Positions 45,226-59,757 of a stretch of DNA of 64,000 nucleotides are shown piece by piece. The stretch covers positions 129,006 through 193,005 of the forward strand of contig DAOORK010000001.1 in assembly GCA_035389185.1 (NCBI GenBank), in the 5' to 3' direction. The translations under genes were made by a program, and so were the position numbers. The notes under the pieces were generated by a model. The model was not told the DNA's origin. It worked only from the letters and a program-made list of their open reading frames with translations, and ran no database searches. The DNA is from Candidatus Woesebacteria bacterium (GTDB taxonomy: Bacteria > Patescibacteriota > Microgenomatia > UBA1400 > MFAQ01). Within the stretch, counting starts at the first letter, position 1, and every line of letters begins with the position of its first letter.

Positions 45226-45256
45226 AAATAATCCCGGGAAACCGGGACTTTTTTAT
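45226..45256. terminator. bidirectional terminator
   Basis: tcccggg-aaa-cccggga hairpin flanked by A7 and T6. Confidence 0.6.
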
Positions 45257-45726: not shown

Positions 45727-45805
45727 ACTTTGATTGTATATTGAGGACAAAGATTTAGATATTTTATTTTCACCAGCTTCAATGGTAAAATATACTGCGT
45801 TGTAT

Positions 45806-45880
45806 GGGTCAGTAGCTCAGTCGGTTAGAGCACCTGCCTTTTAAGCAGGGTGTCGCGGGTTCGAGTCCCGCCTGACCCAC
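45806..45880 (+). tRNA. tRNA-Lys (anticodon TTT)
   Basis: Acceptor GGGTCAG/CTGACCC, D-arm GCTC-AGTCGGTTA-GAGC, anticodon stem CCTGC/GCAGG loop CTTTTAA, T-arm GCGGG-TTCGAGT-CCCGC. Confidence 0.85.
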
Positions 45881-45883
45881 TTT

Positions 45884-45957
45884 GGTCCCGTCGTCTAGCG
45901 GTCTAGGACGTCAGGTTTTCATCCTGAATATCGCGGGTTCGATTCCCGCCGGGATCA
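45884..45957 (+). tRNA. tRNA-Glu (anticodon TTC)
   Basis: Acceptor GGTCCCG/CGGGATC (one G-T pair), anticodon stem TCAGG/CCTGA loop TTTTCAT, T-arm GCGGG-TTCGATT-CCCGC. Confidence 0.85.
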
Positions 45958-46140
45958 CTAAGTTCAGTTTGTTCCGAGGCGATCCGCAAGGGTCGCTTCG
46001 TTGTATTGATGTATCCGACTAAAATTTTCCTAAATTGATTGAAAATCGCGTTCGAGTCCCGTAAGGGTTGTTATTGGATTGTGGATAATTCTTCAAAAAA
46101 CGTCTATAAATAATAGTAGAGAGCAATCTTTACTCAACAA

Positions 46141-46311
46141 CTATTTGTGTTTTGTTTTATCCACTAGCACAAATTGTTGCCTTTTACCCTGGTTGTTTGG
46201 CGGTGTTTTATCACCTCGACTGAGAGTGTACTCAGTCGTACCACCCGAAGGTCGGTACTGTCCAGAAACTGGAGCAAGTTTGCCTGTATAGGCAATTACT
46301 TTTTTCTGCAT
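46141..46311 (-). CDS. hypothetical small protein (56 aa)
   Basis: ATG preceded by an AGGAGG RBS, internal to the 81-aa track ORF; Gly/Thr-rich. Confidence 0.4.
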   Translation of the reverse strand: MQKKVIAYTGKLAPVSGQYRPSGGTTEYTLSRGDKTPPNNQGKRQQFVLVDKTKHK

Positions 46312-46454
46312 TTCCTTTTTCCTCCTTTCTCGCCGGGCTACGGCGTGCTGGTTGCACCGCTCCTTCGAGAAATTTAGCTGTACCAATAAAGACGCTCTCT
46401 ACTGCGAATAATCTATCACCAAAAATCTAACTTAGCAACTTTTTACTTAGAGTG

Positions 46455-47780
46455 CTAATTATTGATTAAAATATACCTGTTTTTGAGAACGAACCTTGTG
46501 TTAATAAGTGAGAGAATTTCCAATCTTTCTTCTGAAGTTCCTCCCCTGAGAATATGGATCAGGTAGTTCTTCGCCATTGCTTTGAATTCTAGTTTTCCCG
46601 GAATCATTCCATTTTCCCCATCGAACTTACCCAACATATATTCTTGGTGGAGTACATCGGTTTTTAACCTGTGATATCTTTCGATGTCCTCTTGGATTTT
46701 CCGAGAGATGCCAGCCTGATTGTAAGATATTTTGTCGATATGACCAATTATTTGTTTAACGAGATCATCTTCCTCAACATATGGTTCGTTACATTCGTAA
46801 TCTAAATATCTCCGACAGTGGTAGTAGATATGCTTTTTAAACCCTCCTCCCCTTAATTTTCTCAGTTTCTCTTCTGCGGTTACCGAACTTCCGCAAGATC
46901 CACACTTTATTAATGTTTTGAAAGCAAAGATATTTTTGTTCCATGTCTTTGGTACTGTTTCCAGTTGTTTTTGGACTTTCTCGAATAACTCTTTGGTAAT
47001 AAGTGGTTTGTGTTTGCCCTTGTACCAGATGCCACTTCCAGATGGAAATTCAAACTCACCATAATAGAATGGATTTTTGAGAATTGCGTGAACTTTACTC
47101 GTGGGACACAACACACCTTGTCTGGTTTCAAAACCAATTCTATCTAGCCATCTTTTTACCGACCTACCACTGTGACCTTGGACACCAACTCTTTCAAACA
47201 TTTGTTTTACAAATGGGGCCCTAATTGGATCGAGGATAACCAGCTCATCAGTACGGCCATCTCCCTTTTGGTTGAGATATCCCATCGGAGCCATACTTGG
47301 TTTCCAACCTAGACTACATTTGTTTCTTAATCCCCTTTCGACATTTACTCCCTTGTTATCGTTTTCCAATTTGGCTTGGGAGCAGAGGATCATCAGAAGA
47401 AATTTTTCGTTGGGACTATTGGTGAAGGATTGGCTGTAAGTTTGGATGCGGAGTAGTTTCTTCTGGTCCATGAGGTCCACAAGTGTTCCCAGATCACCCG
47501 CATTACGGCTTAGACGATCAGGTGCCCATGTGAGTATTCCGTTGAACTTTCCGGAGCGAATTCCTTTTATTAATTCCACAAATACAGGTCTTGCTCCAGA
47601 TTCTTTGGCTGAATGACTTTCTATTTTTATTTCTTTTACTTTTATGTTTTCTCTCTTAGCCAATACTTTCATTTCGTCAATTTGAGAATCAATGGACATA
47701 ATTTGTCTTTCGTCACTTTCAGAAGACTTGCGGGCGTAGAGACAGTAACTTATTTCCTGTGTTTTTGTGGATGTATCCAT
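46455..47780 (-). CDS. large serine recombinase (integrase)
   Basis: N-terminal resolvase catalytic domain (YARKSS, SIDSQ Ser), recombinase domain, Cys zinc ribbon (CGSCGS...C), coiled-coil C-terminus; 441 aa. Confidence 0.85.
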   Translation of the reverse strand: MDTSTKTQEISYCLYARKSSESDERQIMSIDSQIDEMKVLAKRENIKVKEIKIESHSAKESGARPVFVELIKGIRSGKFNGILTWAPDRLSRNAGDLGTLVDLMDQKKLLRIQTYSQSFTNSPNEKFLLMILCSQAKLENDNKGVNVERGLRNKCSLGWKPSMAPMGYLNQKGDGRTDELVILDPIRAPFVKQMFERVGVQGHSGRSVKRWLDRIGFETRQGVLCPTSKVHAILKNPFYYGEFEFPSGSGIWYKGKHKPLITKELFEKVQKQLETVPKTWNKNIFAFKTLIKCGSCGSSVTAEEKLRKLRGGGFKKHIYYHCRRYLDYECNEPYVEEDDLVKQIIGHIDKISYNQAGISRKIQEDIERYHRLKTDVLHQEYMLGKFDGENGMIPGKLEFKAMAKNYLIHILRGGTSEERLEILSLINTRFVLKNRYILINN

Positions 47781-47813
47781 TACTTATCAATGTACCGCAA
47801 GTTTTCTGTAAGT

Positions 47814-49244
47814 CTAGTCCAGGTATCTAACTCTTGGCTCTCCTTTGCTTGCCTCAGCTATGAAATAGTAAAAACCGAGAGTGAAAGCATCAACTAGATC
47901 ATCGTGTGGCTCTACCCCAAAATGAATAATCTGTCCGATTAGCTCATCGGCTCCATGGACTGGAAAAAGCACTTTACCGTTTTGAATCCAACTACTGGTA
48001 AGTGAGAGTCGACTTCTTTTGTCATTTCCACCGATTGTTATTCCTTTTACGTTTACGCTCTCGGTTTCCAACATTTGGATTAAACTTTTTTGATAAGCAA
48101 CATCTTCTACTAAAACTAAGGGTGAATATTGGAGAAGGGATTGTCGGAGATCATTAATTATTTTGATTGTTTCCGGCATTCCCATTCTTTTATTTACCAT
48201 TGTGGGCATTACCTTCACTTGGATATCTTTGTGGTAACCATACATCAGGAATATTACGATTGCGGTTTTGTCTGCCCTTTGGTTTTCGGAAATAGCAGGA
48301 TCGACAGATATGACGGCACACCTCAGATTTTTTGTATCGATTGGAAGTGTGGAGTCATATCGAGCAATCCACTCCGGTAAAACGACTTGATCACCATCGG
48401 GGATTATTTTAAGCATGAACTCCCGAAGAAAATCGGAATCACTGGCAGTTTTCTTTCTCAATCTTTCAATTGAACGTTTGTCCGTAAACTTCCCCGGCCA
48501 AAGGATTTTGCTTCCCCTCATCAAGGGATACTGTTTATAGATTCCGTCAATTCTTTTCTTGGATATGGCTTTCTTCATCCTCATCATTAGAGAGTCTTCG
48601 TGGACGAGATTACCGATGAAAACAATTTTAGTGTTTTGATCTCCTGAAGGAATAAGCTCCGAGTTTACAAATTGCCAAAGTTTATCTCTTCCTTCTTTCG
48701 TCTTAGCCGACTGCATATCCTCGATATCATCGCAGATGATGAGATCTGGACGGTATTGGCGATGGCGAATACCTCTCATACTTTGTGAAACGGAAACTAC
48801 GGTAATTCTGGCATTGTATCGATCCAAAACTAAACTCTCACTATTCCACTCTCCCTTTTTGGAAGCGAAACTTCCAAAGTCTGTATAAAGTAGTTTGTTT
48901 AACTCCAATTCCGCTTTTATATTTGATAAAGTTTGCTGAGCCTGTTGTTGGGTTTGGCAGACGATCAAAACATATTTCTTTTGTGGCGCACCTACGATTG
49001 ACCAGATCGGGTATGAGAGTGTCATTATGGTCGATTTGGCTGACCCACGGAAGGCAACAATAGCTAGTGTTTTAGTATCGACATTCTCCGTTAAACGAAA
49101 TATTTCCTGTTGGAACTGAGCGGTTTCGTATTTAACAAAAGAAGAGAAATATGTATGGAAAAACCAATAATGTGAACCAAAGGTTACTGATTGCCTTACC
49201 GCTGGATTACCGATGATATTTTCAAAAAGTTTCTGCTTTTCCAT
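47814..49244 (-). CDS. phage terminase large subunit
   Basis: ATPase Walker A-like AFRGSAKST, Walker B LIICDDIED, C-terminal RNase H-like nuclease Asp residues (VISVDPA, LVEDVAYQ, HDDLVDAF). Confidence 0.75.
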   Translation of the reverse strand: MEKQKLFENIIGNPAVRQSVTFGSHYWFFHTYFSSFVKYETAQFQQEIFRLTENVDTKTLAIVAFRGSAKSTIMTLSYPIWSIVGAPQKKYVLIVCQTQQQAQQTLSNIKAELELNKLLYTDFGSFASKKGEWNSESLVLDRYNARITVVSVSQSMRGIRHRQYRPDLIICDDIEDMQSAKTKEGRDKLWQFVNSELIPSGDQNTKIVFIGNLVHEDSLMMRMKKAISKKRIDGIYKQYPLMRGSKILWPGKFTDKRSIERLRKKTASDSDFLREFMLKIIPDGDQVVLPEWIARYDSTLPIDTKNLRCAVISVDPAISENQRADKTAIVIFLMYGYHKDIQVKVMPTMVNKRMGMPETIKIINDLRQSLLQYSPLVLVEDVAYQKSLIQMLETESVNVKGITIGGNDKRSRLSLTSSWIQNGKVLFPVHGADELIGQIIHFGVEPHDDLVDAFTLGFYYFIAEASKGEPRVRYLD

Positions 49245-49656
49245 TTTCTTTGATTGGTTTTTCTTTTATGACTCCTGAAAGCAGAAGTGCTTCTCTTACA
49301 ATTGCCTCTTCATCAGGTGTGAGATCATCACGCAGGTGATTCTGGTCGGAAGAGATTTCCAACTTGGGAATGTATGACTGGTGATGATTTTTGAGCCAGA
49401 AGATGATGGCAGTCATATTCTTGTCTCTTATCGATGAAAGCAACTGCGACTCGGCCATGTCATTAATCATCTCAATGCCTTCTTTGAGAGCTTTATCGCT
49501 TTCCTCTTTGAACTTTTTATCCTCCGACCGCCAACGATAGTAGGTGGCACGGCTAACCCCTGATTTTTCGCAAACGACTTGGACAATTGGTGTCTTTTGC
49601 AACAACTCGATGAGTTTGCTTTTATTTTCTTCTTGACGTTTTTCGATGGTGTTCAT
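49222..49656 (-). CDS. putative terminase small subunit / HTH DNA-binding protein
   Basis: HTH VSRATYYRWR; lies immediately upstream of and overlapping the terminase large subunit. Confidence 0.5.
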   Translation of the reverse strand: MNTIEKRQEENKSKLIELLQKTPIVQVVCEKSGVSRATYYRWRSEDKKFKEESDKALKEGIEMINDMAESQLLSSIRDKNMTAIIFWLKNHHQSYIPKLEISSDQNHLRDDLTPDEEAIVREALLLSGVIKEKPIKENGKAETF

Positions 49657-50978
49657 GTGATTTGTTTAGCTTTTAATCCAGTGAGTCTCTCCCATCTTTT
49701 TTTGATAACCTCAGCGTAGACTGGAGACTTCTCCATGAGATAGCAACGACGTTTCATTTTGGTAGCCGCAATCAAGGTTGACCCGCTGCCACCAAATGGT
49801 TCGACAATCAGGTTACCTCGCTTGGTAAGAACTTTGATGTATGGAATTAATATCTCGGTTGGTTTGGTGCCGAAGATCACACCTTGGCCGGAATGTTTTT
49901 CATCTGAGGCATTAAACTCAATGAAATCTGTTGGTTGTGTTTTCTTTCCTTTCTCATACCCTTCCCATTGAGGTTTGCCAGATATGGCGTAGAGTGCGGT
50001 TTCATATTCTTGCTGGAGTCCGTCTTGTTCTTCCTCGTTGTTGTACTGAATATCCACTTCTTTTGACGCTCCAACCATGGCAATGTCATGTTTGCTGAAG
50101 AACTTATATTTAGCAGAGAAACCTTGATGTCGATTGGGTAAATGCCAAATTATCATATTTTTTACTTTCCAATGTTTTTCCATTTCCCCCCAAATGGTTC
50201 GTAGGTTCTTCCAGTTTTCGTAAACAATGATGGAGAAATGTTCCTTTTGAATATTGGCGATGCTGTTCATCCATTTTTCAGTAAAGTCTAACGGAAGACT
50301 TTCGGTTTCCAAATATCTTCGATCTCTTTTAGCTCCGAATCCTGTTACCGCTTTTCCGTGGCGTTTAGCTTTTAGATAGTCGAGAATGTATGGAGGATCG
50401 GTAAAACACATATCTGCTTTCTCCCCAGCCATCAACTTGAGCCATTCTTCATCGTTGGTGGAATCTCCACACATCAATCTGCTTCCGTCGAGGTCATAAA
50501 TATCACCTTTCTTTATATTTATTTTGGTGATATCCATCTTCAATAGTTCCTTCTGGAGATCAAACTGTTCCGGTGTGTCTTCAATCTCAAAGATTTGATC
50601 TAACTCTTCACTGGAGAAACCAACACTATCCAAAAAAGCAGAATCAAAATCGGCTAACAAACCCCAATCCCATTCACCTGTGTTTTTGTTTAGTCTGAGA
50701 TTTAACTCTTTTTCTTTCTCGATGTCGGGAATATTTACATAGACCACAGGAATTGTTTCGAAGCCCATTTCTTTGGCGACTTCTAACCTGAAATGACCAC
50801 CGATGACAATGTTCTTCCTTTCTGGAGCTTCGTTGACGATGATTGGATCGACCAATCCAAATTTGGTAATACTTTCTTTCAACTGGTCAGCTGATTGTTT
50901 ATCGTGCTTCCTGGGGTTGTATGCCGCAGGATTAAGTTCCTTTATGAAAACTTGGGTTATTTGTATTTGTTTACTCAT
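49653..50978 (-). CDS. ParB-like nuclease domain fused to a DNA methyltransferase (beta-class N4/N6)
   Basis: N-terminal ParB/Srx block (GGHFRLEVAKEMG), motif IV DPPY placed before motif I FGGSGST, so beta-class permutation. Confidence 0.85.
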   Translation of the reverse strand: MSKQIQITQVFIKELNPAAYNPRKHDKQSADQLKESITKFGLVDPIIVNEAPERKNIVIGGHFRLEVAKEMGFETIPVVYVNIPDIEKEKELNLRLNKNTGEWDWGLLADFDSAFLDSVGFSSEELDQIFEIEDTPEQFDLQKELLKMDITKINIKKGDIYDLDGSRLMCGDSTNDEEWLKLMAGEKADMCFTDPPYILDYLKAKRHGKAVTGFGAKRDRRYLETESLPLDFTEKWMNSIANIQKEHFSIIVYENWKNLRTIWGEMEKHWKVKNMIIWHLPNRHQGFSAKYKFFSKHDIAMVGASKEVDIQYNNEEEQDGLQQEYETALYAISGKPQWEGYEKGKKTQPTDFIEFNASDEKHSGQGVIFGTKPTEILIPYIKVLTKRGNLIVEPFGGSGSTLIAATKMKRRCYLMEKSPVYAEVIKKRWERLTGLKAKQIT

Positions 50979-51000
50979 GTTTTTTGAGTAATTGATAATA

Positions 51001-51062
51001 AAAAATGCCTACCTCACAAAAACCTGCTTCAACGCGAAGCGATAAGTTTCTGTGAGGTAGGC
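51001..51062 (-). terminator. large-loop hairpin, probable terminator of the minus-strand operon
   Basis: Perfect 12-bp inverted repeat gcctacctcaca / tgtgaggtaggc around a 32-nt loop, with an A5 run (T-run on the minus strand). Confidence 0.4.
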
Positions 51063-51150
51063 ACGACCGAGGCGAGGCCTCTTCGATAGCTTTGGAGCCA
51101 TCTCCTATCAGGTATTCCTGAAATGAGTGATTCCTACACCACTAATTTAA

Positions 51151-51486
51151 TTATACTGATTTTTTCTGTATTTTTTTCAGGCGCTCTTTTACGTCTTCTC
51201 CAAGAAGAAAGGGTATGCCATTTGGCATAATTATCCGGATGGTCATTCCTTGCTTATTGGCTTTTTCTATTGCTTGAGTAATTTCTGGACCAAAAGGAAT
51301 TGTGAACGTCATTTTCCCTGTCGATTCATCGAGCTTAACATTATCTCTAGTCATAAATGCACGTCCCTGTTGTCCAGTAGATATGGATTTGGAGATAGCT
51401 CTGCCAAATGAAACAGGTTTCCTTACCTCTTGGGTGTGTAGAGAAATATCGGTAAATTGGATATCAAAATATTTTTCATCGGTCAT
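51151..51486 (-). CDS. hypothetical protein
   Basis: 111-aa ORF, last gene of the nuclease-receiver operon. Confidence 0.45.
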   Translation of the reverse strand: MTDEKYFDIQFTDISLHTQEVRKPVSFGRAISKSISTGQQGRAFMTRDNVKLDESTGKMTFTIPFGPEITQAIEKANKQGMTIRIIMPNGIPFLLGEDVKERLKKIQKKSV

Positions 51487-51498
51487 AACTTAATTATA

Positions 51499-51876
51499 TT
51501 AATTTTGACCGTACTTTTTCCCGATTTGGTCTTTGAGTTCTGCCGCGAACTTTTCCAAATCTTGATACTCCTTGTTTATCACAACTTTTACGCCTATTTT
51601 TAGAAGTTCCTCGTTGTATGGTGGGACAGAAGAAATTCCAATTATTTTATCTACTCCAAATTTTTCAAAATCTAATGCATGGAAAGATCCGCCCATGGCA
51701 CAATCACGGTCAAGAAGAATTATGTCGAATTTTAGTTCACTAGGGTTAAGTATCTTTTCGACTTGCTCATAAGTGGAAAAAACTACTGGAGCAAAATCTA
51801 TCTTTGTTTCGAATAATACTCTAAAAATTATCGAGAGCGTCTCCAAATCATCTTCGAGGATAAGCATTGACTTCAT
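51499..51876 (-). CDS. response-regulator receiver-like (CheY-like) domain protein, stand-alone
   Basis: MLILEDD ... ILLDRD pattern (phospho-acceptor Asp position) with alternating beta/alpha periodicity; 125 aa. Confidence 0.4.
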   Translation of the reverse strand: MKSMLILEDDLETLSIIFRVLFETKIDFAPVVFSTYEQVEKILNPSELKFDIILLDRDCAMGGSFHALDFEKFGVDKIIGISSVPPYNEELLKIGVKVVINKEYQDLEKFAAELKDQIGKKYGQN

Positions 51877-53369
51877 TGTCCTTGTTTATCTAAATAGTCT
51901 TTGATAACCATGGTAGCTACACAGTCGTCTTCGTTATACAGAAGAATTCTGTCCATATCGGCCTTGTCTTTGGTTTCAAGATAGTGGTTAAACCATTCAA
52001 TAGACATGGCGCCGGAGGGTGTCTTGTCTCGCCAGCTAAAGCCTAGATACTGAGCAATTTCTTTTAGAGAGTAGCTCATCAAGGGCCAATCGGTATGTTT
52101 GGAAACTACAGAATATAGATCTATTGCTTTTTCTTCACTAAAGAACCAAGCAAGTTCTTCCTCAGTAACCACATCCGGATACTTTTCTCTCATGCGGCGA
52201 TAGGTTGTCTTCTCGTGGTGGGAATAATAGTAAGTAGTAAAGTCGTCTTTGGGTAGTGATCGAATATATTGCCAAAAATTACTCCAGGCTTCTCTTTCTG
52301 ATTCGTCGGTTTTGTCTAATGCAGTAAAGTCTATAAACCTCTCCCCTTTTGGAGAGCGCTCGTATACACCATGAAGATAGACAAAGGCTTGGGTGGGATC
52401 GTCTTCAATATCAAAATATAATTCGTAGCTTGTTTTGGGAAAGTTCATTTTTTCGTAAATGACGGGACTTTTTGTAACTTCCATGATTTTTGATCTTTGA
52501 ACAAACTTTGTGAGTTTTGCCTCTCCCAAACCAAATAAATACTTTTTGTCTTTTTTCTTTTTGGCCAATAGTGTGTCGATGTCCAGGTCAATCAAATCTA
52601 TGTAGCTTTCAATGTCCAAATCTCTTTCTAGGATATCTCTGTTGGCCCTACCGAGACAGAAGATCATACTTGGGTCATGACTCTCTTTTATCCATTTTTT
52701 GCAGCTTGCGTACCATGGGCAAAGTTTGCATTTGCCGGAATATGCTGGTTTGTTTTTTATTTCGTTATTTAAGAGCTTCCCTGCCATTACTTTTGTTTCT
52801 TGGTAAAAGTCCCAGTAAGTTTGAGGTGTTTTTGTGCCAATAGGTTTATCCAAGTCGTATGTAGTTCTCTCGGAGTTAATATCGATAATGGCACCAGAAT
52901 GTTTTTTAGCAAAACCGAGATTGATAAGCACTTCGCAGTAGAGAGCGAGTTGAACCGCATAATGTATTTTGTATTTTCCCTCATTATCATTTTCCTCATC
53001 TACTCCCTCAACTCCCATACCGCTTTTGATGTCGACTGGTAGGTAGGTACCGTCTGGCTGTATTTCTAAGAGGTCCGGAATGCCAAAGAGCTCGCTGTGG
53101 CGAATAGCTCCTTGGTAAATGAGTGGCATTCCTGCATTCATGGCTTCTAGAGTGGCTTTTTCTCTTTCTTTCTCCCCTACTTCTTTGAGATCCAGAATCT
53201 TTCCCAGCTTGCCCACTATATTTTCTTCGTGACTGACTCCTTTTTCCCAAAGCATTTCTACAAAGGGATTTGTATCTGGATTCTTTTCGGCCTTTGGGCC
53301 ATACACATCACGCCAAATACGATGTTCGCACTGGAGGTAGTTATATAGTTTAGATGGTGTGATTTTCAT
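51873..53369 (-). CDS. RecB-family nuclease, TM0106-like (Cas4-like PD-(D/E)xK with Fe-S cysteines, plus a C-terminal RNase H-like domain)
   Basis: N-terminal Cys (YLQCEH), IPDLLEI...VDIK, QLALYCEV (QxxxY), CKLCPWYASC; C-terminal FDIEDD ... YYSHHEKT ... YNEDDC; ATGA overlap with the receiver gene. Confidence 0.55.
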   Translation of the reverse strand: MKITPSKLYNYLQCEHRIWRDVYGPKAEKNPDTNPFVEMLWEKGVSHEENIVGKLGKILDLKEVGEKEREKATLEAMNAGMPLIYQGAIRHSELFGIPDLLEIQPDGTYLPVDIKSGMGVEGVDEENDNEGKYKIHYAVQLALYCEVLINLGFAKKHSGAIIDINSERTTYDLDKPIGTKTPQTYWDFYQETKVMAGKLLNNEIKNKPAYSGKCKLCPWYASCKKWIKESHDPSMIFCLGRANRDILERDLDIESYIDLIDLDIDTLLAKKKKDKKYLFGLGEAKLTKFVQRSKIMEVTKSPVIYEKMNFPKTSYELYFDIEDDPTQAFVYLHGVYERSPKGERFIDFTALDKTDESEREAWSNFWQYIRSLPKDDFTTYYYSHHEKTTYRRMREKYPDVVTEEELAWFFSEEKAIDLYSVVSKHTDWPLMSYSLKEIAQYLGFSWRDKTPSGAMSIEWFNHYLETKDKADMDRILLYNEDDCVATMVIKDYLDKQGQ

Positions 53370-53462: not shown

Positions 53463-56400
53463 ATGACTTTCAATAAAATATTGGATCGTTTTAGGTCTGA
53501 ATCATTTTCTGAGCGAGATAAGGGATTTAAGTTTGAAAGGCTTATTCAAGCATATTTATACACTGACCCAAAATATACCCACCTACAAAAGATATGGCTT
53601 TGGGGTGAATTTCCCTTTCGCTCCTCATTTGGAGGCCAAGATGTAGGAATTGATTTGGTTGCTAAAACATTTGAAGGTGAATATTGGGCAATACAATGCA
53701 AATGTTATCAAGAAGATAATCGCATTAATAAAGAGGAGGTCGATACTTTCTTAGCCACATCGAGTCGCAGTTTTAAGGATGAACAATTAGCAGAGATCAA
53801 ATTTAGTCACTGTCTTTGGGTTTCTACAACAAATAATTGGTCCTCAAATGCGAACGAATCGTTGCAAAATCAAAATCCTCCGGTAACCAGAATAAATCTA
53901 TCTGACTTACAGGAAGCATCTGTTGACTGGTCTAAAATAAGTGAAGGAATGTATGGTGAGAAAGCACGAACTCCTAAGAAGCAACTTAAATATCACCAAA
54001 AAGAGGCCCTTGATAAAGCCATAAACTATTTTAAGAATGACAACCGTGGAAAATTAATCATGGCTTGCGGCACAGGCAAGACTTTTACCAGTCTAAAGAT
54101 TGCAGAGGAACTGACAAATCACACTGGTACTATTTTGTTCTTAGTCCCCTCGATCGCCTTACTCGGACAATCTCTTCGAGAGTGGACAAGTGACGCCGCA
54201 GAAGAAATAAATCCTATTGCAATCTGTTCTGATTCGGAAATTACAAAAGACAAAAAAAAGAATGAAGACACCGACACCTACAGTGTAGTTGACTTAGCTA
54301 TCCCCGCCTCTACAAACATGAGAGACATTCTCAAACAATTTGAGTATTTTGAAATGGCAAAAAAGAAAGGCCTGACCGTTGTCTTCTCCACATATCAGTC
54401 AATTGATGTAATTTCCCAGACCCAGAAGAGACTTGAAAGTATCGGGAGTAAGTACCAAAAGTTTGATCTTATTGTATGCGATGAAGCACACCGTACTACT
54501 GGAGTAACGATTTCCGGAGAGGATGAATCATCATTTGTCAAAGTACACGACAATGCTTTCATTAATGCAGATAAGCGTATATACATGACTGCCACACCTA
54601 GACTATATGGTGAAGAGTCAAAGAGAAAAGCTGAAGAAACATCTGCTGTGTTGTGCTCAATGGATGATGAGGCACTTTATGGTAAAGAAATATATCGCAT
54701 TGGCTTTGGTGAGGCAGTTGAACGAGATTTACTGTCGGACTACAAGGTCTTAATCCTTACTCTTTCCGAAAATGATGTAACTCCAGAGGTCCAAAAAATA
54801 CTCCAGAATCCTGAACACGAAATCGGTGTTGATGATGCTTCAAAGTTGATTGGATGTATAAATGCAATGTCAAAACAAATTATTAGTGATAAGGGCACTG
54901 TGAACACAAATGACCCTGATCCTATGCGACGTGCCGTGGCATTTACTTCGAGCATAAAGATTTCCAAAAAAATTACTGATTCGTTTAATGAAATTGGTGA
55001 AACTTACGCAAAATCAGTTCCGGAACTAAAACAACAAACACTAGTAAACCTTAACTCAAAACACATAGATGGATCTATGTCTGCGACTGACCGCAATGAG
55101 CTTATGTCTTGGCTAAAGGCAGAGCCTAACGACTCCCAAGAGGCTCGGGTTCTCACAAATGTTAGATGTTTAAGTGAAGGTGTTGATGTACCAACTCTCG
55201 ATGCTGTTATGTTCCTTTCGGCAAAGAACTCCCAAATTGATGTAGTTCAATCAGTGGGTCGAGTAATGCGAAAAAGTCCAGGTAAACAATATGGTTATAT
55301 TATTATTCCTATTGTTATCCCAACAGATGTTAAACCTGAAGATGCTCTGAAAGATAATGATAGATATAAGGTTGTCTGGACAGTATTAAACGCACTACGT
55401 GCACATGATGACCGATTTAACGCGATTGTAAATAAGATCGATCTAAACAAAAATCGTCCAGTACAAATTATTATCGGAAGGCCAGATCCAGATGGTGATG
55501 GAGATCCTTTTAATGATTCTGACGAATCAAAAAAGGCACTCAAGGGTTCTCAGCTAGCATTACAATTTGATCAACTCCAAAATGCTATTTATGCGAAAAT
55601 GGTGCAAAAAGTTGGTGATCGTCAATATTGGGAAAACTGGGCAAAAAGTGTTGCAGACATAGCTGAAAGGCAGATTGTAAGAATCACGAAGATAGTTGAC
55701 GAAGATGACTCTGCGCACATGGGCTTCCGTGAATTTGTTCGAGGTCTACGAAAAAATATAAATCCATCGATAACTGAACAGCAGGCTATTGAAATGTTGT
55801 CGCAACACATAATCACAAAACCAGTTTTTGAGGCATTGTTTGAAGGGTATTCTTTTGTTTCAAACAATGCAGTGTCCATATCTATGCAAAAAGCACTTGA
55901 TGCTATAGAAACAAAGGCTATCGAAGATGTTGATGCAGAGCTTCTTCAGGGGTTTTATAAATCAGTTCGAAAACGAGCAGAGGGAATTGATAATTCAGAA
56001 GGAAAACAAAGAATAATAGTTGAGCTTTACGACAAATTTTTTAAGACTGCATTTCCAAAACTGGTAGAGCAGTTGGGCATAGTATATACACCTGTGGAGG
56101 TGGTTGATTTCATAATCCACTCCATAAATGATGTGTTACAAAATGAATTTGGTCGTAGCTTGAGTGATGAGAATGTAAATATTCTCGACCCATTCACTGG
56201 GACAGGAACATTTATTACTCGCTTATTACAGACTGGTGTAATAAAGCATCAAGATCTTGAAAGAAAATACAAGGGAGAAATTTTTGCTAATGAAATAGTA
56301 CTACTTGCCTACTACATAGCAGCAGTAAATATTGAAAATGCATATCATGATCTGCTTAAAAAAGATGTCTATGAGAGTTTTGAAGGTATTGTTCTTACTG

Positions 56401-58325
56401 ACACCTTCCAGCTGAGTGAAGATGGCGACAATGAAAAATTATTTTGTGATGCGTTAGCAGAAAACTCAGAGAGACTTGAACGTCAGAAAAATACACCTCT
56501 TAAAGTGATCATGGGAAACCCACCATATTCGGTTGGCCAAACTTCAGCAAATGACGCGTCACAAAATCAAAGCTATCCAAAACTAGAAAACCGAATCGGA
56601 CAGACATATGTATCTCAAATCACCGATAACACCCTCAAGCAATCACTATATGATGCATATATTAAGGCGTTCCGCTGGGCCACTGATCGCCTTGATAAAG
56701 ATGGTGGAATTATCTGTTTTGTTTCTAATGGAGCCTGGCTTGACGGAAAAGCTACCTCTGGATTTAGAAAAACAATTGAAAATGAGTTTACTAGTGTTTA
56801 TGTCTTTAATCTTCGAGGTAACCAACGAACAAATGGAGAAGAATCTCGTCGCGAGGGGGGGAAAATATTCGGAAGTGGCTCTCGTACACCGATTTCTATC
56901 ACACTACTAGTCAAAAATCCAAACAAACATAACGATAAAGCTGAGATTTTGTATCACGACATTGGAGACTATCTAAGTCGGGAAGAAAAACTGAAAATTA
57001 TATCTGATTTTAAGACAGTATCAAATCAAAAATTAGTCTGGAAAACGCTTAATCCAAACAATGAGGGAGATTGGATAAACAAACGTCATAGCATTTTTGA
57101 TACTTATGTAGAGCTTGGTTCAAAAGCTAAAAATAAGAACTCGTGCTTTGATCTGTATTCTGCTGGAGTTATTACGCATCGCGATGCATGGGTTTACGAC
57201 TTCAGCGAAATTAAGCTGGAAGATAAACTAACCAGAATGATTTCCTTTTATAACAGTGAGGCAAAAAAGCTGCAAGTGATGAGGCAAAAAAATCATAGAG
57301 TATCTGTCGAGAAAAGTGTTAATAAAGATTCTAAACTTATCAAATGGGATCGTAGGCTGTATGAACATGCTGATAAATCTGTAGTTCACACCTTTAATAG
57401 TGCTGATATTTATACAACGCTATATCGCCCATTCTCGAAACAACATTATTATTTCAATAAAAATTTAAGCTGGAGCAGATACTTACAACCGAAGCTATTT
57501 CCCTACCCCACGAGCAGTAATCTTGTGATCTGCACCACAGGACCAGGAGCAAACAAGGATTTTTCTGCATTAATGAGCAATGTTGTCACTGACTTCCATA
57601 CGTTAATGAATAATCAATCTTTTCCGCTATATTACTATGAAAAGAATGAACAAAATATTCCTTCTCTTTTCGATTTAGAAAAGAATAACGAATATAACAA
57701 GAGAGATAGTATAAGTGATTACGTTTTGCGTAAAGCACAAACACAATATTCTGATAATGAAATCAGCAAAGAAGATATCTTTTATTACATATATGGACTG
57801 CTTCATAGCATGGACTATCGAATTGAGTTTGCAAATGATTTAAAAAAAATGTCACCTAAAATTCCCCTTGTTGAAACAATAAGTGATTTCAAGAAATTTA
57901 GTAAAGCAGGTAGAAAATTGGGAGAACTACATGTAAACTACGAAAAAGTTCCCCCATATGAAGGTGTTAGGGTGAGCGGGACACAGCACAATAACTATCT
58001 TGTTGAGAAACTCAAATTCATTAAGAAGGGACAACGTGACACAATAATATTTAACAATCAAATAAAGATTGAGAATATCCCCGAAATTGCTTATAAGTAT
58101 GTTGTAAATGGGAAGAGTGCAATTGAATGGATTGTCGAGAAATATCAGATTAAAACGGATAAGGAAAGCGGAATAGTTAATGATCCAAATGATTGGGCGA
58201 AGGAAGTTGGAAATCCCAGATATATTCTTGATTTGCTTCTGAGTGTAATTAATTTAAGTGTTCAAACAGTGGACATTGTAAATAGCTTACCCAAGCTAAG
58301 TTTTGACACTGGGACAAAAGAATAA
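53463..58325 (+). CDS. Type ISP-like single-polypeptide restriction-modification enzyme (Mrr nuclease, SF2 helicase-like ATPase, gamma-class N6-adenine methyltransferase, target-recognition domain)
   Basis: N-terminus GQDVGIDLVA...IQCKCY (Mrr PD-QxK); LIMACGTGKTFT (motif I), VCDEAHRTTG (DEAH), QSVGRVMR (motif VI); DPFTGTGTF (methyltransferase motif I) then NPPY; 1620 aa. Confidence 0.7.
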   Translation: MTFNKILDRFRSESFSERDKGFKFERLIQAYLYTDPKYTHLQKIWLWGEFPFRSSFGGQDVGIDLVAKTFEGEYWAIQCKCYQEDNRINKEEVDTFLATSSRSFKDEQLAEIKFSHCLWVSTTNNWSSNANESLQNQNPPVTRINLSDLQEASVDWSKISEGMYGEKARTPKKQLKYHQKEALDKAINYFKNDNRGKLIMACGTGKTFTSLKIAEELTNHTGTILFLVPSIALLGQSLREWTSDAAEEINPIAICSDSEITKDKKKNEDTDTYSVVDLAIPASTNMRDILKQFEYFEMAKKKGLTVVFSTYQSIDVISQTQKRLESIGSKYQKFDLIVCDEAHRTTGVTISGEDESSFVKVHDNAFINADKRIYMTATPRLYGEESKRKAEETSAVLCSMDDEALYGKEIYRIGFGEAVERDLLSDYKVLILTLSENDVTPEVQKILQNPEHEIGVDDASKLIGCINAMSKQIISDKGTVNTNDPDPMRRAVAFTSSIKISKKITDSFNEIGETYAKSVPELKQQTLVNLNSKHIDGSMSATDRNELMSWLKAEPNDSQEARVLTNVRCLSEGVDVPTLDAVMFLSAKNSQIDVVQSVGRVMRKSPGKQYGYIIIPIVIPTDVKPEDALKDNDRYKVVWTVLNALRAHDDRFNAIVNKIDLNKNRPVQIIIGRPDPDGDGDPFNDSDESKKALKGSQLALQFDQLQNAIYAKMVQKVGDRQYWENWAKSVADIAERQIVRITKIVDEDDSAHMGFREFVRGLRKNINPSITEQQAIEMLSQHIITKPVFEALFEGYSFVSNNAVSISMQKALDAIETKAIEDVDAELLQGFYKSVRKRAEGIDNSEGKQRIIVELYDKFFKTAFPKLVEQLGIVYTPVEVVDFIIHSINDVLQNEFGRSLSDENVNILDPFTGTGTFITRLLQTGVIKHQDLERKYKGEIFANEIVLLAYYIAAVNIENAYHDLLKKDVYESFEGIVLTDTFQLSEDGDNEKLFCDALAENSERLERQKNTPLKVIMGNPPYSVGQTSANDASQNQSYPKLENRIGQTYVSQITDNTLKQSLYDAYIKAFRWATDRLDKDGGIICFVSNGAWLDGKATSGFRKTIENEFTSVYVFNLRGNQRTNGEESRREGGKIFGSGSRTPISITLLVKNPNKHNDKAEILYHDIGDYLSREEKLKIISDFKTVSNQKLVWKTLNPNNEGDWINKRHSIFDTYVELGSKAKNKNSCFDLYSAGVITHRDAWVYDFSEIKLEDKLTRMISFYNSEAKKLQVMRQKNHRVSVEKSVNKDSKLIKWDRRLYEHADKSVVHTFNSADIYTTLYRPFSKQHYYFNKNLSWSRYLQPKLFPYPTSSNLVICTTGPGANKDFSALMSNVVTDFHTLMNNQSFPLYYYEKNEQNIPSLFDLEKNNEYNKRDSISDYVLRKAQTQYSDNEISKEDIFYYIYGLLHSMDYRIEFANDLKKMSPKIPLVETISDFKKFSKAGRKLGELHVNYEKVPPYEGVRVSGTQHNNYLVEKLKFIKKGQRDTIIFNNQIKIENIPEIAYKYVVNGKSAIEWIVEKYQIKTDKESGIVNDPNDWAKEVGNPRYILDLLLSVINLSVQTVDIVNSLPKLSFDTGTKE

Positions 58326-58326
58326 T

Positions 58327-59757
58327 ATGGAATGGCTAGTCCTCATGGGAGGAGTTCTATTAGTCGGATATTTTCTCGGTAAATCAGATAAGTCTGGTAG
58401 AGAGGTTAGCACTCCTGATCCAGTCAAATCTGTACAATCAGGTCAATTTCCTAAGAAACTAAATGTTAAGCATGAGGAAATTGACAGCATTAATCTTAGT
58501 GATGAGCAATCTGAAATATTTAACTTACTAGAAACGACAAATAATGCTTATTATGTAACTGGAAAAGCAGGCACTGGTAAATCCATACTATTAAAATATT
58601 TTGTTACCCATACTGGAAAAAGAGTTGTTGTAGTTGCTCCTACAGGAGTGGCTGCTCTAAATATTGGTGGCCAGACAATACATTCACTTTTTAAGATGCC
58701 ATTTGATATCGATTTTAATGATATCAAGGTTGATTACAGAACCAGAGAGCTATTGAGAAATATCGATACGGTAGTTATTGATGAAGTATCAATGGTTCGT
58801 GCTGATTTGATGGAGGCAATGAATATTAAACTGCAAATATCCAGAGGAAATACTCTGCCGTTTGGTGATGTCCAAATGATAATGTTTGGTGATTTGTATC
58901 AATTACCTCCAGTCGTAAGTGATGGCGAATTACAAAGATACTTAAATCATAAGTTTGGTGGACACTATTTCTTTAACGCACCGTCAATAAACAAAGCTAA
59001 TCTGCAAACCTATGAACTTAAAAAAGTATTTCGGCAGAAAGATGCTGAATTTATAAGAATATTGGATGCCGTAAGGAGAGGTGTAATTAAAGAAATTGAC
59101 TTAGAGGCACTTAACGAACGTTCTCGTGCCGATAAACCTACTGATGGATATGTAACTCTGGCAGGAACAAATGAAACTGTGTCGTATATCAACCATAAAA
59201 ACTTAGATAAACTCCCTGGAGAAGAAAAGGTATATGAGGCTGAAATATGGGGAGATATCACAGAGAATTCGTTTCCAACTGAAAAGAAGTTGAGACTTAA
59301 AATTGGTGCTCAAATTATGATGCTAAAAAATGACACTGAGAAACCGAGGCGATGGGTAAATGGAACACTTGGCGTAATTACAAAATTAAGTCAAGACGTG
59401 GTTCGCGTAAACATTGATGGAGTTGAGCACACCATCACACCCGCAAACTGGGACAAAATTCAATACGAATACGACCCAGATAATCGAGAGCTAAACAAAA
59501 AAGTTGTAAGTTCTTTTAAGCAATTACCATTACGATTGGCTTGGGCTATAACAATCCATAAATCACAAGGGCAAACATATAAAACAATTGCAATTGATTT
59601 AACAGGTGGTGCGTTTGCTCACGGACAGACATATGTTGCACTCAGTAGATGTGTCTCGCTAGAAGGAATATATCTTAATGCTCCAATCAAGAAGGAGGAC
59701 ATCATTGTTGACCCTGACATTATTGAATTTATGAGCAAGGCGGTGGTACTTAATTAA
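58327..59757 (+). CDS. PIF1/RecD-like SF1B helicase
   Basis: VTGKAGTGKS Walker A, VVIDEVSM Walker B, C-terminal LAWAITIHKSQGQTY...VALSRC (PIF1 motifs V and VI); ATG 1 nt after the upstream stop. Confidence 0.7.
   Translation: MEWLVLMGGVLLVGYFLGKSDKSGREVSTPDPVKSVQSGQFPKKLNVKHEEIDSINLSDEQSEIFNLLETTNNAYYVTGKAGTGKSILLKYFVTHTGKRVVVVAPTGVAALNIGGQTIHSLFKMPFDIDFNDIKVDYRTRELLRNIDTVVIDEVSMVRADLMEAMNIKLQISRGNTLPFGDVQMIMFGDLYQLPPVVSDGELQRYLNHKFGGHYFFNAPSINKANLQTYELKKVFRQKDAEFIRILDAVRRGVIKEIDLEALNERSRADKPTDGYVTLAGTNETVSYINHKNLDKLPGEEKVYEAEIWGDITENSFPTEKKLRLKIGAQIMMLKNDTEKPRRWVNGTLGVITKLSQDVVRVNIDGVEHTITPANWDKIQYEYDPDNRELNKKVVSSFKQLPLRLAWAITIHKSQGQTYKTIAIDLTGGAFAHGQTYVALSRCVSLEGIYLNAPIKKEDIIVDPDIIEFMSKAVVLN

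What the first reader, a model, noticed from the sequence alone, without database searches (positions are those of the whole stretch)
51151..53369. Operon of a Cas4/RecB-like TM0106 nuclease, a stand-alone receiver domain and a small protein, divergent from the Type ISP gene
A 498-aa protein combines an Fe-S-cysteine PD-(D/E)xK nuclease (QLALY, CKLCPWYASC) with a C-terminal RNase H-like domain. It overlaps by ATGA a 125-aa CheY-like receiver domain that has no output domain. A 111-aa protein follows, and the operon ends in a hairpin with a 12-bp stem and 32-nt loop. A phospho-receiver coupled to a DNA-end nuclease suggests a signal-gated nuclease module. The shared 93-bp divergent promoter region with the R-M gene suggests co-regulation.
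Basis: partly seen in the sequence, partly recalled or inferred. Interest (0 to 1): 0.6.

Follow-up and report, generated by a model that had tools for sequence, protein, structure and literature searches.

The report
Mosaic gene string, not nuclease–receiver module
The three genes are real, but they are a defence-island nuclease, a resident receiver-like gene and the first gene of an integrated mobile element that ended up side by side at an insertion hotspot, so they are not a signal-gated nuclease system; the receiver-like gene does belong to an undescribed family that pairs with FtsK-gamma DNA-binding domains.

Summary
The three ORFs, the ATGA overlap, the TM0106 nuclease identity and a terminator hairpin are all present. 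AlphaFold and Foldseek support a receiver (REC) fold for the 125-aa protein, and its acidic pocket, Asp56, Ser82 and Lys102 are invariant. Pfam's Response_reg model does not detect it.

The interpretation does not hold. A syntenic relative without the insertions (L170) carries protease–REC125–tRNA-Glu–tRNA-Lys–ruvC. This shows that REC125 is a resident chromosomal gene. SM111 is the first gene of a 5.5-kb serine-recombinase/terminase/ParB-methylase element inserted at the 3' end of REC125. That element also occurs elsewhere without REC125. The nuclease, the Type ISP enzyme and Pif1 are island cargo inserted upstream of REC125.

None of 79 more distant REC125 loci has the nuclease. None of 80 nuclease loci has REC125. 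Even REC125 copies at least 80% identical are preceded by Pif1, a PvuII-like restriction–modification system or a 79-aa ORF instead. The Type ISP neighbour is not conserved.

By-products:
- REC125 defines a small, unannotated Patescibacteria family whose only recurrent fusion or adjacent partner is the FtsK-gamma winged helix.
- TM0106 nucleases habitually follow restriction–modification or helicase defence genes.
- The SM111–ParB intergenic region is a highly conserved structured element.

The parts
51873..53369 (-). NUC498: a TM0106/COG2251-family nuclease. It combines a Cas4-like [4Fe-4S] PD-(D/E)xK domain with a PolB-exonuclease-like RNase H-fold domain. It is island cargo, not part of a conserved pair with REC125.
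   Evidence: TIGR03491 232 bits; PDDEXK_1 and RNase_H_2. Catalytic and Cys residues invariant. Homology with relatives breaks at its start codon and, in L170/L174, at its stop codon. In 80 other loci it follows variable RM or helicase genes.
51499..51876 (-). REC125: a divergent stand-alone receiver-fold protein. It is a resident chromosomal gene flanked by two insertion hotspots.
   Evidence: AF2 pLDDT 93.3. Top 50 Foldseek PDB hits are all REC domains. E8, D9, D56, S82 and K102 are invariant and D10 is nearly invariant. No Pfam Response_reg hit. Synteny with protease, tRNA-Glu/Lys and ruvC in L170 and with ruvCAB in the P0024 contig.
51151..51486 (-). SM111: a lineage-restricted small protein and the first gene of the integrated element. 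Function unknown.
   Evidence: Only 18 homologues, 57-92% identical. Found with ParB-MTase, TerS, TerL and SerRec but without REC125 or the nuclease in L167, L168 and L164-166. Absent from L001, which keeps the nuclease and REC125.
50979..51150 (-). Structured intergenic element that ends in a long hairpin (51007-51062) followed by a T-run (about 51000-51005). It is probably an intrinsic terminator plus a leader of the ParB-MTase/terminase operon.
   Evidence: RNA fold z = -7.06. 98% identical in L081, L167 and L168, and 90% in L164, where SM111 is only 57% identical. 58 predicted pairs, 4 with compensatory changes. No Rfam match.
45959..51520 (-). Integrated mobile element of about 5.5 kb: o81 (46141-46386), large serine recombinase (46455-47780), TerL (47814-49244), TerS-like HTH (49222-49656), ParB_N-N6/N4 methyltransferase (49653-50978), structured IG and SM111. 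It supplies the last few codons of REC125.
   Evidence: Pfam, NCBIfam and PHROG assignments. Homology boundaries at 45955-45958 and 51505-51533. The element sits in different left-hand contexts in L164-168. L170 lacks it.
53463..59757 (+). Variable defence cargo: Type ISP restriction-modification enzyme (53463-58325) and Pif1-like helicase (58303-59757). Together with NUC498 it is inserted between REC125 and the protease gene.
   Evidence: Type_ISP_C, ISP_coupler, Mrr_cat_2 and PADLOC REase_MTase_IIG. PIF1. Not shared with L001 or L081-083. Absent from L170.
59796..62465 (.). Conserved chromosomal flank: trypsin-like protease (59796-61313, -) and a protein with an N-terminal FtsK-gamma domain plus an FtsK/SpoIIIE ATPase domain (61380-62465, +). 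These are the usual neighbours of REC125 homologues elsewhere.
   Evidence: Trypsin_2; FtsK_gamma plus FtsK_SpoIIIE. Protease homologues occur near REC125 in 9 of 80 loci and FtsK-gamma in 12 of 80. L170 protease is adjacent to REC125.
45253..45958 (.). Conserved chromosomal flank on the other side: ruvC (45253-45750, -), tRNA-Lys (45806-45880, +) and tRNA-Glu (45884-45958, +). The element abuts the 3' end of tRNA-Glu.
   Evidence: ARAGORN and Rfam. Same order in L170 and L172.

Best explanation
The 'operon' is a mosaic made by two insertions on either side of a resident gene in a Candidatus Woesebacteria (Patescibacteria) chromosome.

Shown: The ancestral arrangement, still seen in relative L170, is trypsin-like protease - small ORF - REC125 - about 400 bp - tRNA-Glu - tRNA-Lys - ruvC - ruvA. 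In the window, a mobile element of about 5.5 kb (SM111, structured leader/terminator, ParB-methyltransferase, TerS, TerL, large serine recombinase) sits between the 3' end of REC125 and tRNA-Glu. It replaces the last few codons of REC125. A defence island (TM0106 nuclease, Type ISP R-M enzyme, Pif1 helicase) sits between REC125 and the protease gene, with one edge exactly at the REC125 start codon. That edge is what produces the ATGA overlap.

Inferred: NUC498 is a two-headed DNA-end nuclease, with a Cas4-like 5'-end/endonuclease domain and a DEDD-type 3'-5' exonuclease domain. It travels with restriction enzymes and defence helicases and most likely degrades DNA that they cut or unwind. REC125 is an atypical but probably Mg2+-binding and possibly phosphorylatable receiver. 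Its family-wide partner is the FtsK-gamma winged-helix DNA-binding domain, fused or encoded next door, so it most likely acts as a switch on a DNA-binding or DNA-translocating protein rather than on this nuclease. SM111 belongs to the mobile element and has an unknown role there. The three genes may be co-transcribed in this strain, but they are not a conserved functional module.
For: Empty-site synteny:
- L170 (REC125 80% identical) has protease, a 79-aa ORF, REC125, tRNA-Glu, tRNA-Lys, ruvC and ruvA in the same order and orientation as the window.
- Homology to the window covers REC125 from its start codon to 51514-51527 and resumes at 45958-45982.
- The P0024 contig also has REC125 about 5 kb from ruvCAB.

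Element mobility:
- SM111-ParBMT-TerS-TerL-SerRec occurs without REC125 or the nuclease in L167, L168 and L164-166, behind unrelated genes. Homology ends at 51505-51521.

Variable upstream slot of near-identical REC125 genes:
- Nuclease directly upstream in the window, L001 and L081-083.
- Nuclease plus an 81-aa ORF in L172.
- Pif1 helicase in two contigs, and a PvuII-like R-M system in L174.
- A 79-aa ORF in L170.

No wider co-occurrence:
- Only 1 of 80 genome loci with REC125 homologues has the nuclease, and that locus (L001) is the same element.
- 0 of 80 metagenome loci with nuclease homologues (53-73% identical) have a REC125-family ORF at HMM E<=0.01.

Nuclease context:
- It is usually the last gene after PDC-S37/Mokosh-like SF1 helicases, Type IIG or Type III R-M enzymes, or SNF2 helicases.
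- COG2251 fusions to tandem AAA domains are reported in PMC3985635.

REC125 family:
- AF2 and Foldseek assign a REC fold.
- The family has only 148 clusters at 50% identity among 1.84 billion representatives.
- 7 of 10 long members are REC125 plus FtsK_gamma fusions.
- An FtsK-gamma ORF is adjacent or fused in 9 of 80 loci.
Against: - The nuclease and REC125 are kept together, with a 4-nt overlap, in five contigs of this lineage while the DNA upstream of the nuclease turns over. This could reflect selection rather than mere adjacency.
- Cas4-like PD-(D/E)xK nucleases of other families lie within a few genes of REC125 homologues in about 13 of 80 loci. One of them is fused to FtsK-gamma. A looser receiver-nuclease link through FtsK-gamma is therefore not excluded.
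- L081 and L001 lack the tRNA flank, so the history of the right-hand junction is not uniform.
- About 400 bp of L170 between REC125 and tRNA-Glu has no counterpart in the window, so the event was a replacement rather than a clean insertion.
- All functional statements are inferred from sequence and context. Nothing was tested biochemically.
Confidence: 0.78

Rival explanations
1. First reader's model. The nuclease, the receiver and the small protein form a dedicated three-gene defence module. Phosphorylation of the stand-alone receiver gates the DNA-end nuclease, and the module is co-regulated with the Type ISP gene through the shared 93-bp region.
For: The three genes are tightly packed, lie on one strand and end in a terminator. 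The nuclease and receiver overlap by ATGA. The receiver keeps a complete phospho-acceptor pocket. The region is a defence island. The trio is intact in L081-083.
Against: - All intact trios are DNA-level homologues of one lineage, 79-90% nucleotide identity.
- SM111 occurs without the other two genes, and the other two occur without SM111 in L001.
- REC125 copies 87% identical are preceded by Pif1 or a PvuII-like R-M system.
- 0 of 79 and 0 of 80 distant loci show the pair.
- L170 shows separate origins for the three genes.
- The Type ISP gene is not a conserved neighbour.
- No PADLOC model matches REC125 or SM111.
- A crude motif scan found no histidine-kinase motifs in the window or in 962 neighbouring ORFs.
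Confidence: 0.06
2. Lineage-specific co-option. The trio is not ancestral, but in this Woesebacteria lineage the nuclease has become translationally and functionally coupled to the resident receiver. NUC498-REC125 would then work as a new two-gene unit, for example with the receiver tuning nuclease activity or recruiting it to DNA bound by an FtsK-gamma protein.
For: The pair persists in at least five contigs while the upstream cargo changes: Type ISP, Type III plus helicase, or SF1 helicase. The pair overlaps by ATGA. Other Cas4-like nucleases recur near REC125 homologues, and one is fused to FtsK-gamma.
Against: In L172 an unrelated 81-aa ORF separates the two genes. The pair is absent from equally close relatives. 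Persistence is also expected if the active insertion hotspot simply lies upstream of the nuclease. There is no evidence of interaction.
Confidence: 0.12
3. REC125 is not resident. It is the terminal cargo gene of the serine-recombinase element, which would explain why the family is so often near serine recombinases, Xre repressors and terminase genes.
For: A serine recombinase lies within 7 kb in 17 of 80 REC125 loci. Xre HTH and TerS genes recur nearby. L171 has another serine-recombinase element downstream of REC125.
Against: L170 keeps REC125 between the protease and tRNA-Glu with no recombinase element. The element exists without REC125 in L164-168. No REC125 relatives were found in 2.9 million IMG/VR contigs or in INPHARED phages. 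Synteny with the protease, FtsK-gamma and ruvCAB recurs across lineages.
Confidence: 0.04

Closest known systems
TM0106 family RecB-like putative nuclease (NCBIfam TIGR03491; COG2251; RNase H-like family F.13 of Majorek et al. 2014, PMC3985635)
   Same: Full-length match at 232 bits. Same architecture: a Cas4/DUF83-like PD-(D/E)xK domain with four Cys, followed by a PF13482 RNase H-fold predicted 3'-5' exonuclease. No CRISPR association. The frequent link to SF1 (AAA_11/AAA_12) helicases seen here matches the AAA fusions noted in the literature.
   Different: Nothing about the protein itself; it is an ordinary member. New here is the documentation that, in Patescibacteria, the family sits as the last gene behind many different R-M and defence helicase genes. 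The family has no solved structure by sequence search and no tested function.
Single-domain response regulators (CheY, Spo0F, DivK; Pfam PF00072 Response_reg)
   Same: Predicted (beta-alpha)5 fold whose best structural matches are all receiver domains. It has an acidic pair after beta1, an Asp at the end of beta3 that aligns with the phospho-acceptor of ComE, PhoB-family proteins and Spo0F, a Ser after beta4 and a Lys after beta5. It is stand-alone, about 125 aa.
   Different: - Not detected by the Pfam or NCBIfam receiver models.
- A sharply separate family of 148 clusters at 50% identity.
- An invariant family-specific D-R-D-C-x3-G-S-F-H loop after the acceptor Asp.
- No kinase found nearby.
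- Its recurrent partner is the FtsK-gamma winged helix, an output not found in a literature search of the held library.
Detocs (DtcA kinase, DtcB stand-alone receiver 'buffer', DtcC receiver-effector), the known defence system that uses a lone receiver
   Same: A stand-alone receiver domain encoded in a defence island.
   Different: There is no sensor kinase and no receiver-effector gene. No PADLOC match for REC125. REC125 is a resident gene, not island cargo.
Integrative elements and satellites that carry defence cargo (PICI and P4-like satellites, minimalist PICMI-type islands, serine-integrase prophage remnants)
   Same: A small (about 5.5 kb) element with an integrase at one end next to a tRNA gene. 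It has terminase small and large subunits and a ParB-methyltransferase but no capsid genes. Relatives carry variable defence cargo: Shedu SduA_C inside L082/083, with Abi_alpha and R-M genes beside it.
   Different: It uses a large serine recombinase and lives in Patescibacteria. No helper phage, replication module or excision has been shown. Assignment to any named satellite family was not tested.

Membership tests
TM0106 / TIGR03491 RecB-like nuclease | Full-length match to the family model above its curated cutoff | tested here: met
   232.1 bits against a cutoff of 97.45, covering residues 4-493 and model positions 2-462
TM0106 / TIGR03491 RecB-like nuclease | Cas4-like PD-(D/E)xK core (D...D/ExK, QxxxY) with a C...CxxCx5C cysteine set | tested here: met
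   PDDEXK_1 E=6e-7 and Cas4 models. D99, K115, Q140, Y144, C14, C214, C217 and C223 invariant in 27 homologues
TM0106 / TIGR03491 RecB-like nuclease | C-terminal RNase H-fold (PF13482) exonuclease domain with acidic catalytic residues | tested here: met
   RNase_H_2 E=5.6e-28, residues 317-493. D320, E322, D324, D417 and D481/D482 invariant. Classified as a predicted 3'-5' exonuclease in PMC3985635
Receiver (REC) domain, PF00072 | Significant match to the Pfam Response_reg profile | tested here: not met
   No hit even at E<=10. A family profile against PDB gives only E=0.26-1, although all six hits are REC domains. One distant family member, P0369, reaches E=0.0088, below the gathering score
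Receiver (REC) domain, PF00072 | (beta-alpha)5 CheY-like fold | tested here: met
   AF2 with a 45-sequence alignment gives pLDDT 93.3 and pTM 0.88. The top 50 Foldseek PDB matches are all receiver domains, with E=1e-5 to 5e-4 and TM up to 0.81
Receiver (REC) domain, PF00072 | Catalytic quintet: acidic pair after beta1, acceptor Asp after beta3, Thr/Ser after beta4, Lys after beta5 | tested here: met
   E8, D9, D56, S82 and K102 are invariant and D10 is nearly invariant in 45 sequences. D56 aligns with the acceptor Asp of ComE, a PhoB-family regulator and Spo0F. The positions match the predicted strands. Side-chain geometry was not inspected
Receiver (REC) domain, PF00072 | Phosphorylation on the conserved Asp by a cognate kinase or a small-molecule donor | not testable with these tools
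   A crude motif scan found no histidine-kinase H-box or G-box in the window or in 962 ORFs around homologues. This is weak negative evidence only
Conserved multi-gene defence system (nuclease + receiver + small protein) | The gene set recurs together across diverse genomes | tested here: not met
   The trio occurs only in L081-083, which are the same lineage. 0 of 79 other REC125 loci have the nuclease, and 0 of 80 nuclease loci have REC125. SM111 is separable from both. Close relatives have other upstream genes
Detocs and other catalogued defence systems | Match of the receiver or the small protein to a PADLOC model | tested here: not met
   No PADLOC hits for REC125 or SM111. The nuclease gives only weak Cas4 and DruK hits
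Integrative mobile element | Recombinase gene at one end, sharp homology boundaries, occurrence in different contexts, and an empty site in a relative | tested here: met
   Large serine recombinase (Resolvase, Recombinase and Zn_ribbon_recom). Boundaries at 45955-45958 and 51505-51533. Different flanks in L164-168. L170 lacks the element. Excision itself was not tested
Intrinsic terminator | G+C-rich hairpin followed directly by a U-run at the end of the gene string | tested here: met
   Long hairpin at 51007-51062 followed by TTTTTT. Its apical stem was picked up by the scan. The structure is conserved in relatives

The most novel reading that the evidence does not exclude
REC125 may represent a previously undescribed class of receiver protein restricted to Patescibacteria. 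Its output would be the FtsK-gamma winged helix, either fused to it or encoded next to it. Such a switch would act on DNA-binding or DNA-translocating proteins near ruvCAB, and its gene marks a two-sided hotspot for defence islands and serine-recombinase elements. In this lineage the translational coupling to a COG2251 nuclease could have placed that nuclease under the same switch.
Probability: 0.3. Interest if true: 0.55.

Novelty: new variant of a known kind. Interest (0 to 1): 0.3.

Why it matters
The proposed signal-gated nuclease would have been a new defence logic, but the evidence says the gene string is an accident of two insertions. What remains useful is more modest.

1. This is a clean worked example of tight packing and even ATGA overlap arising at an insertion junction. 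It is a caution against reading operons in defence islands as systems.
2. REC125 defines an unannotated receiver-like family whose only recurrent partner is FtsK-gamma. That would add an output type to two-component-like signalling in the poorly understood Patescibacteria (candidate phyla radiation) bacteria.
3. The uncharacterised TM0106/COG2251 nucleases ride behind many different restriction and helicase defence genes. This gives a testable role as an accessory DNA-degrading enzyme.
4. A small terminase-bearing serine-recombinase element with defence cargo and a highly conserved structured leader was found in Patescibacteria.

Tried and rejected
- **Toprim reading of REC125.** The invariant E8 and D56-x-D58 suggested Toprim. 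This was rejected because all top 50 Foldseek matches are receiver domains.
- **Single-sequence AF2 of REC125.** It gave a poor model (pLDDT 55), so it was redone with the alignment.
- **hhalign of the family against single CheY and Spo0F sequences typed from memory.** Probability was very low. The comparison was useful only for the register of the beta1 and beta3 motifs.
- **SM111.** No Pfam, NCBIfam, PHROG, PADLOC or PDB relatives. No distant relatives among 1,900 ORFs of the fetched loci. An AbrB-like impression from the sequence could not be supported.
- **Phage origin.** No match of the nuclease or REC125 in 50,697 phage records. No REC125 relatives and a single nuclease relative (L169) in IMG/VR.
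- **Rfam search of the island.** Only the two tRNAs were found.
- **Literature.** 'TM0106' and 'TIGR03491' return nothing relevant. No listed paper holds 'FtsK gamma' together with receiver terms.
- **Histidine-kinase motif scans.** Negative, but crude.
- **Promoter scan of the 93-bp divergent region.** It found only a weak plus-strand site, and the counts were no better than in shuffles.
Full report
**Observation**

The minus strand carries three tightly packed ORFs:
- 51873-53369, 498 aa (NUC498)
- 51499-51876, 125 aa (REC125)
- 51151-51486, 111 aa (SM111)

NUC498 and REC125 share the four bases ATGA. A long hairpin and a T-run lie downstream (51007-51062, then TTTTTT). The 1620-aa Type ISP gene lies upstream and divergent, 93 bp away. 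The window comes from a Candidatus Woesebacteria (Patescibacteria) genome. REC125 is 100% identical to an NCBI protein from such a MAG, on contigs of about 905 kb.

**The nuclease**

NUC498 is a full-length member of the TM0106 family:
- TIGR03491 scores 232 bits against a cutoff of 97.
- Pfam finds PDDEXK_1 and RNase_H_2 domains.
- In 27 homologues the Cas4-type cysteines (C14, C214, C217, C223), the PD-(D/E)xK residues (D99, K115, Q140, Y144) and the acidic residues of the RNase H-fold domain (D320, E322, D324, D417, D481/482) are invariant.
- The literature classifies this architecture (COG2251, PF13482 family F.13) as a predicted 3'-5' exonuclease related to the PolB exonuclease domain, joined to a DUF83 nuclease and often fused to tandem AAA domains (PMC3985635).
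- No structure has been solved for a sequence relative.

**The receiver-like protein**

- Pfam, NCBIfam, PHROGs and PADLOC give no assignment for REC125, even at E<=10 for Pfam.
- It belongs to a family of more than 300 proteins, almost all from Patescibacteria.
- An alignment of 45 members shows invariant E8, D9, D56, R57, D58, C59, G63, S64, F65, H66, S82 and K102, and nearly invariant D10.
- A profile of this alignment hits only receiver domains in the PDB, but weakly (E=0.26-1). D56 aligns with the phospho-acceptor Asp.
- AlphaFold2 with the alignment gives a confident model (pLDDT 93.3). The single-sequence run was poor.
- The 50 best Foldseek matches in the PDB are all receiver domains (E=1e-5 to 5e-4, TM up to 0.81). 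This also disposes of a Toprim reading that I considered because of the E...DxD pattern.

In a search of 1.84 billion representatives the family is small and sharply bounded, with 148 clusters at 50% identity.

**Does the trio recur?**

*From the REC125 side.* Of 80 genome loci with a homologue, only L001 has the nuclease next to it. L001 is a close relative (88-91% identical) and itself lacks SM111. None of the 80 has an SM111 homologue.

*From the nuclease side.* Of 80 metagenome loci with homologues 53-73% identical, none has a REC125-family ORF at HMM E<=0.01.

*From the SM111 side.*
- The family has only 18 members.
- The trio is intact in L081, L082 and L083. These are DNA-level homologues of the window, 79-90% identical.
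- L167 and L168 carry SM111-ParBMT-TerS-TerL-SerRec with unrelated genes in place of REC125 and the nuclease. In L164-166 SM111 follows yet another gene.

*Among very close REC125 copies (80-89% identical)*, the gene directly upstream varies:
- the nuclease, in the window, L001 and L081-083
- the nuclease plus an unrelated 81-aa ORF, in L172
- a Pif1 helicase, in two contigs
- a PvuII-like R-M system, in L174
- a 79-aa ORF, in L170

**The decisive comparison**

L170 is a syntenic relative without the insertions. It carries trypsin-like protease, a 79-aa ORF, REC125, about 400 bp, tRNA-Glu, tRNA-Lys, ruvC, a 129-aa gene and ruvA. The order and orientation match window genes 59796-61313 ... 51499-51876 ... 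45884-45958, 45806-45880, 45253-45750 and 44182-44739.

Homology covers REC125 from its start codon down to 51514-51527 and resumes at 45958-45982. A second relative has REC125 about 5 kb from ruvCAB. Three conclusions follow.

1. **REC125 is a resident chromosomal gene.**
2. **The stretch from 45959 to about 51520 is an integrated element.** It runs from o81 and the large serine recombinase through TerL, TerS-like and ParB-methyltransferase to the structured intergenic region and SM111.
   - Its ends are defined independently by the breakpoints with L001 and L081 (45955), with L164, L167 and L168 (51505-51521) and with L170 and L172 (51514-51533).
   - The element's terminus supplies the last few codons of REC125.
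   - The motif GGTCAAAATTAATATAATTAAG upstream of the SM111 start is also present where no REC125 exists.
3. **The stretch 51877-59795 (nuclease, Type ISP, Pif1) is inserted between REC125 and the protease gene.**
   - One edge lies exactly at the REC125 start codon, which creates the ATGA overlap.
   - Homology with L001 and L081-083 ends exactly at the nuclease start codon (53369-53371). In those relatives the nuclease is preceded by co-directional genes: an SF1 helicase, or helicase plus methylase plus ResIII.
   - The shared divergent promoter with the Type ISP gene is therefore not a conserved feature.

**What the parts most likely do (inference)**

*The nuclease.*
- In the 80 nuclease loci the gene is typically the last in a co-directional string behind large and very variable genes.
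- PADLOC identifies these as PDC-S37/Mokosh-like SF1 helicases, Type IIG enzymes, a Type III restriction subunit and BrxH/DrmD-like SNF2 helicases.
- Two loci have Type ISP-like enzymes directly upstream. Serine recombinases occur in 9 loci. In L099 the order nuclease-X-ParBMT-TerS-TerL-SerRec recurs with a different X.
- The most economical reading is an accessory DNA-end-degrading enzyme that travels with restriction and helicase defence genes. This has not been tested.

*REC125.* The only recurrent specific partner is the FtsK-gamma winged helix.
- It is fused in L065 and in 7 of the 10 longest family representatives.
- It is encoded immediately next to REC125 in 8 further loci and is present in 12 of 80 loci.
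- The window's own FtsK-gamma/FtsK-ATPase gene (61380-62465) and the protease are the usual neighbours elsewhere.
- This suggests a receiver-type switch acting on a DNA-binding or DNA-translocating partner.
- Serine recombinases lie within 7 kb in 17 of 80 loci, and R-M genes, Xre repressors and TerS genes are common. This fits a resident gene whose flanks are insertion hotspots.
- REC125 relatives are absent from IMG/VR and from sequenced phages.

**A caveat that keeps a minority hypothesis alive**

- Cas4-like PD-(D/E)xK nucleases of other families lie within a few genes of REC125 in about 13 of 80 loci. These are a 250-aa PDDEXK_1 protein (once fused to FtsK-gamma), DUF83+DUF2779 and a 300-400-aa PDDEXK_1 protein.
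- The nuclease-REC125 pair persists in five contigs while the DNA upstream changes.
- I rate lineage-specific functional coupling at about 0.12 and the original three-gene module at about 0.06.

**The hairpin**

- The 12-bp stem with a 32-nt 'loop' is part of a longer hairpin of about 26 bp, followed by a U-run.
- The whole 171-177-nt SM111-ParBMT spacer is strongly structured (z = -7.06).
- The spacer is better conserved than the genes around it. It is 98% identical in L081, L167 and L168, and 90% in L164, where SM111 is only 57% identical.
- Four predicted pairs show compensatory changes. There is no Rfam match.
- It belongs to the mobile element, not to a nuclease operon.

**Verdict**

The proposed system is not real as a unit. 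The finding is a mosaic at an integration hotspot, made of a known but uncharacterised nuclease family, a new variant of the receiver fold and a gene from a mobile element. Interest is modest. It rests mainly on the REC125/FtsK-gamma family and on the defence-island habit of TM0106 nucleases.

Noticed in passing
window 50979-51155 (-); L081:8332-8509, L082:8333-8510, L164:426-601, L167:10332-10508, L168:10332-10508: The intergenic region between SM111 and the ParB-methyltransferase gene is more conserved than the flanking genes (98% and 90% identity against 82-88% DNA and 57% protein). It folds into four small hairpins plus a long terminator-like hairpin (z = -7.06), with four compensatory pairs. 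It has no Rfam family. It could be a leader, an sRNA, or a pac or ori site of the element.
   Followed up: partly
L065:6980-7594; proteins P0263, P0266, P0269, P0275, P0282, P0292, P0332; loci L003, L013, L018, L021, L024, L026, L029, L036: REC125-family domains are fused to one or two FtsK_gamma winged-helix domains, or are encoded directly beside small FtsK_gamma proteins, some of which are membrane-anchored with two gamma domains. I could not find this receiver-output combination in the searchable literature.
   Followed up: partly
L084-L163 (for example L146:1393-5991, L107:650-5311, L120:1337-5950, L095:48-2888, L094:3302-5992, L144:2287-5997, L085:2774-5992): TM0106 nuclease homologues (53-73% identical) are usually the last gene behind very different large defence genes. 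These include PDC-S37/Mokosh-like SF1 helicases of about 1530 aa, Type IIG and Type III R-M enzymes and SNF2 helicases. XseA/XseB lie downstream in several loci.
   Followed up: partly
L082:11667-13835 and L083:11666-13836: In these relatives a cassette of an HTH protein, a tRNA_anti-like OB-fold protein and a Shedu-type SduA_C nuclease sits between TerL and the serine recombinase. This is a second cargo slot inside the element.
   Followed up: no
window 61380-62465 (+) and 62458-63126 (+): The FtsK-like protein has an unusual domain order, with FtsK_gamma at the N-terminus and a short FtsK/SpoIIIE ATPase part after it. It overlaps a 222-aa ORF with no family match. Homologues of that ORF sit directly upstream of TM0106 nucleases in L148 and L154, and one is also present in L085.
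   Followed up: partly
window 44834-45223 (+), between ruvA and ruvC on the opposite strand: A 129-aa ORF with no Pfam match. A gene of the same size is called at the same position in L170, and it overlaps a 142-aa ORF on the other strand. By eye its sequence (RILIVHAD...YDLVIIFDN...IPVFYVD) has an alternating strand/helix pattern like a flavodoxin-like or pseudo-receiver fold. Not tested.
   Followed up: no
window 46040-46075 (+): Just inside the element, about 90 bp from tRNA-Glu, the stretch ATCGCGTTCGAGTCCCGTAAGGGTT resembles a tRNA T-arm and 3' end. It may be a relic of an attachment site.
   Followed up: no
L172:9355-10570: In this close relative the element begins with an ImmA/IrrE-type peptidase (Peptidase_M78), an Xre HTH and a 103-aa protein instead of SM111. 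The head of the element is therefore itself modular.
   Followed up: no
L169 (IMGVR_UViG_3300035698_025530), 8001-9467: This is the only predicted viral contig in IMG/VR that encodes a TM0106 nuclease relative (46% identical). Its context was not examined.
   Followed up: no
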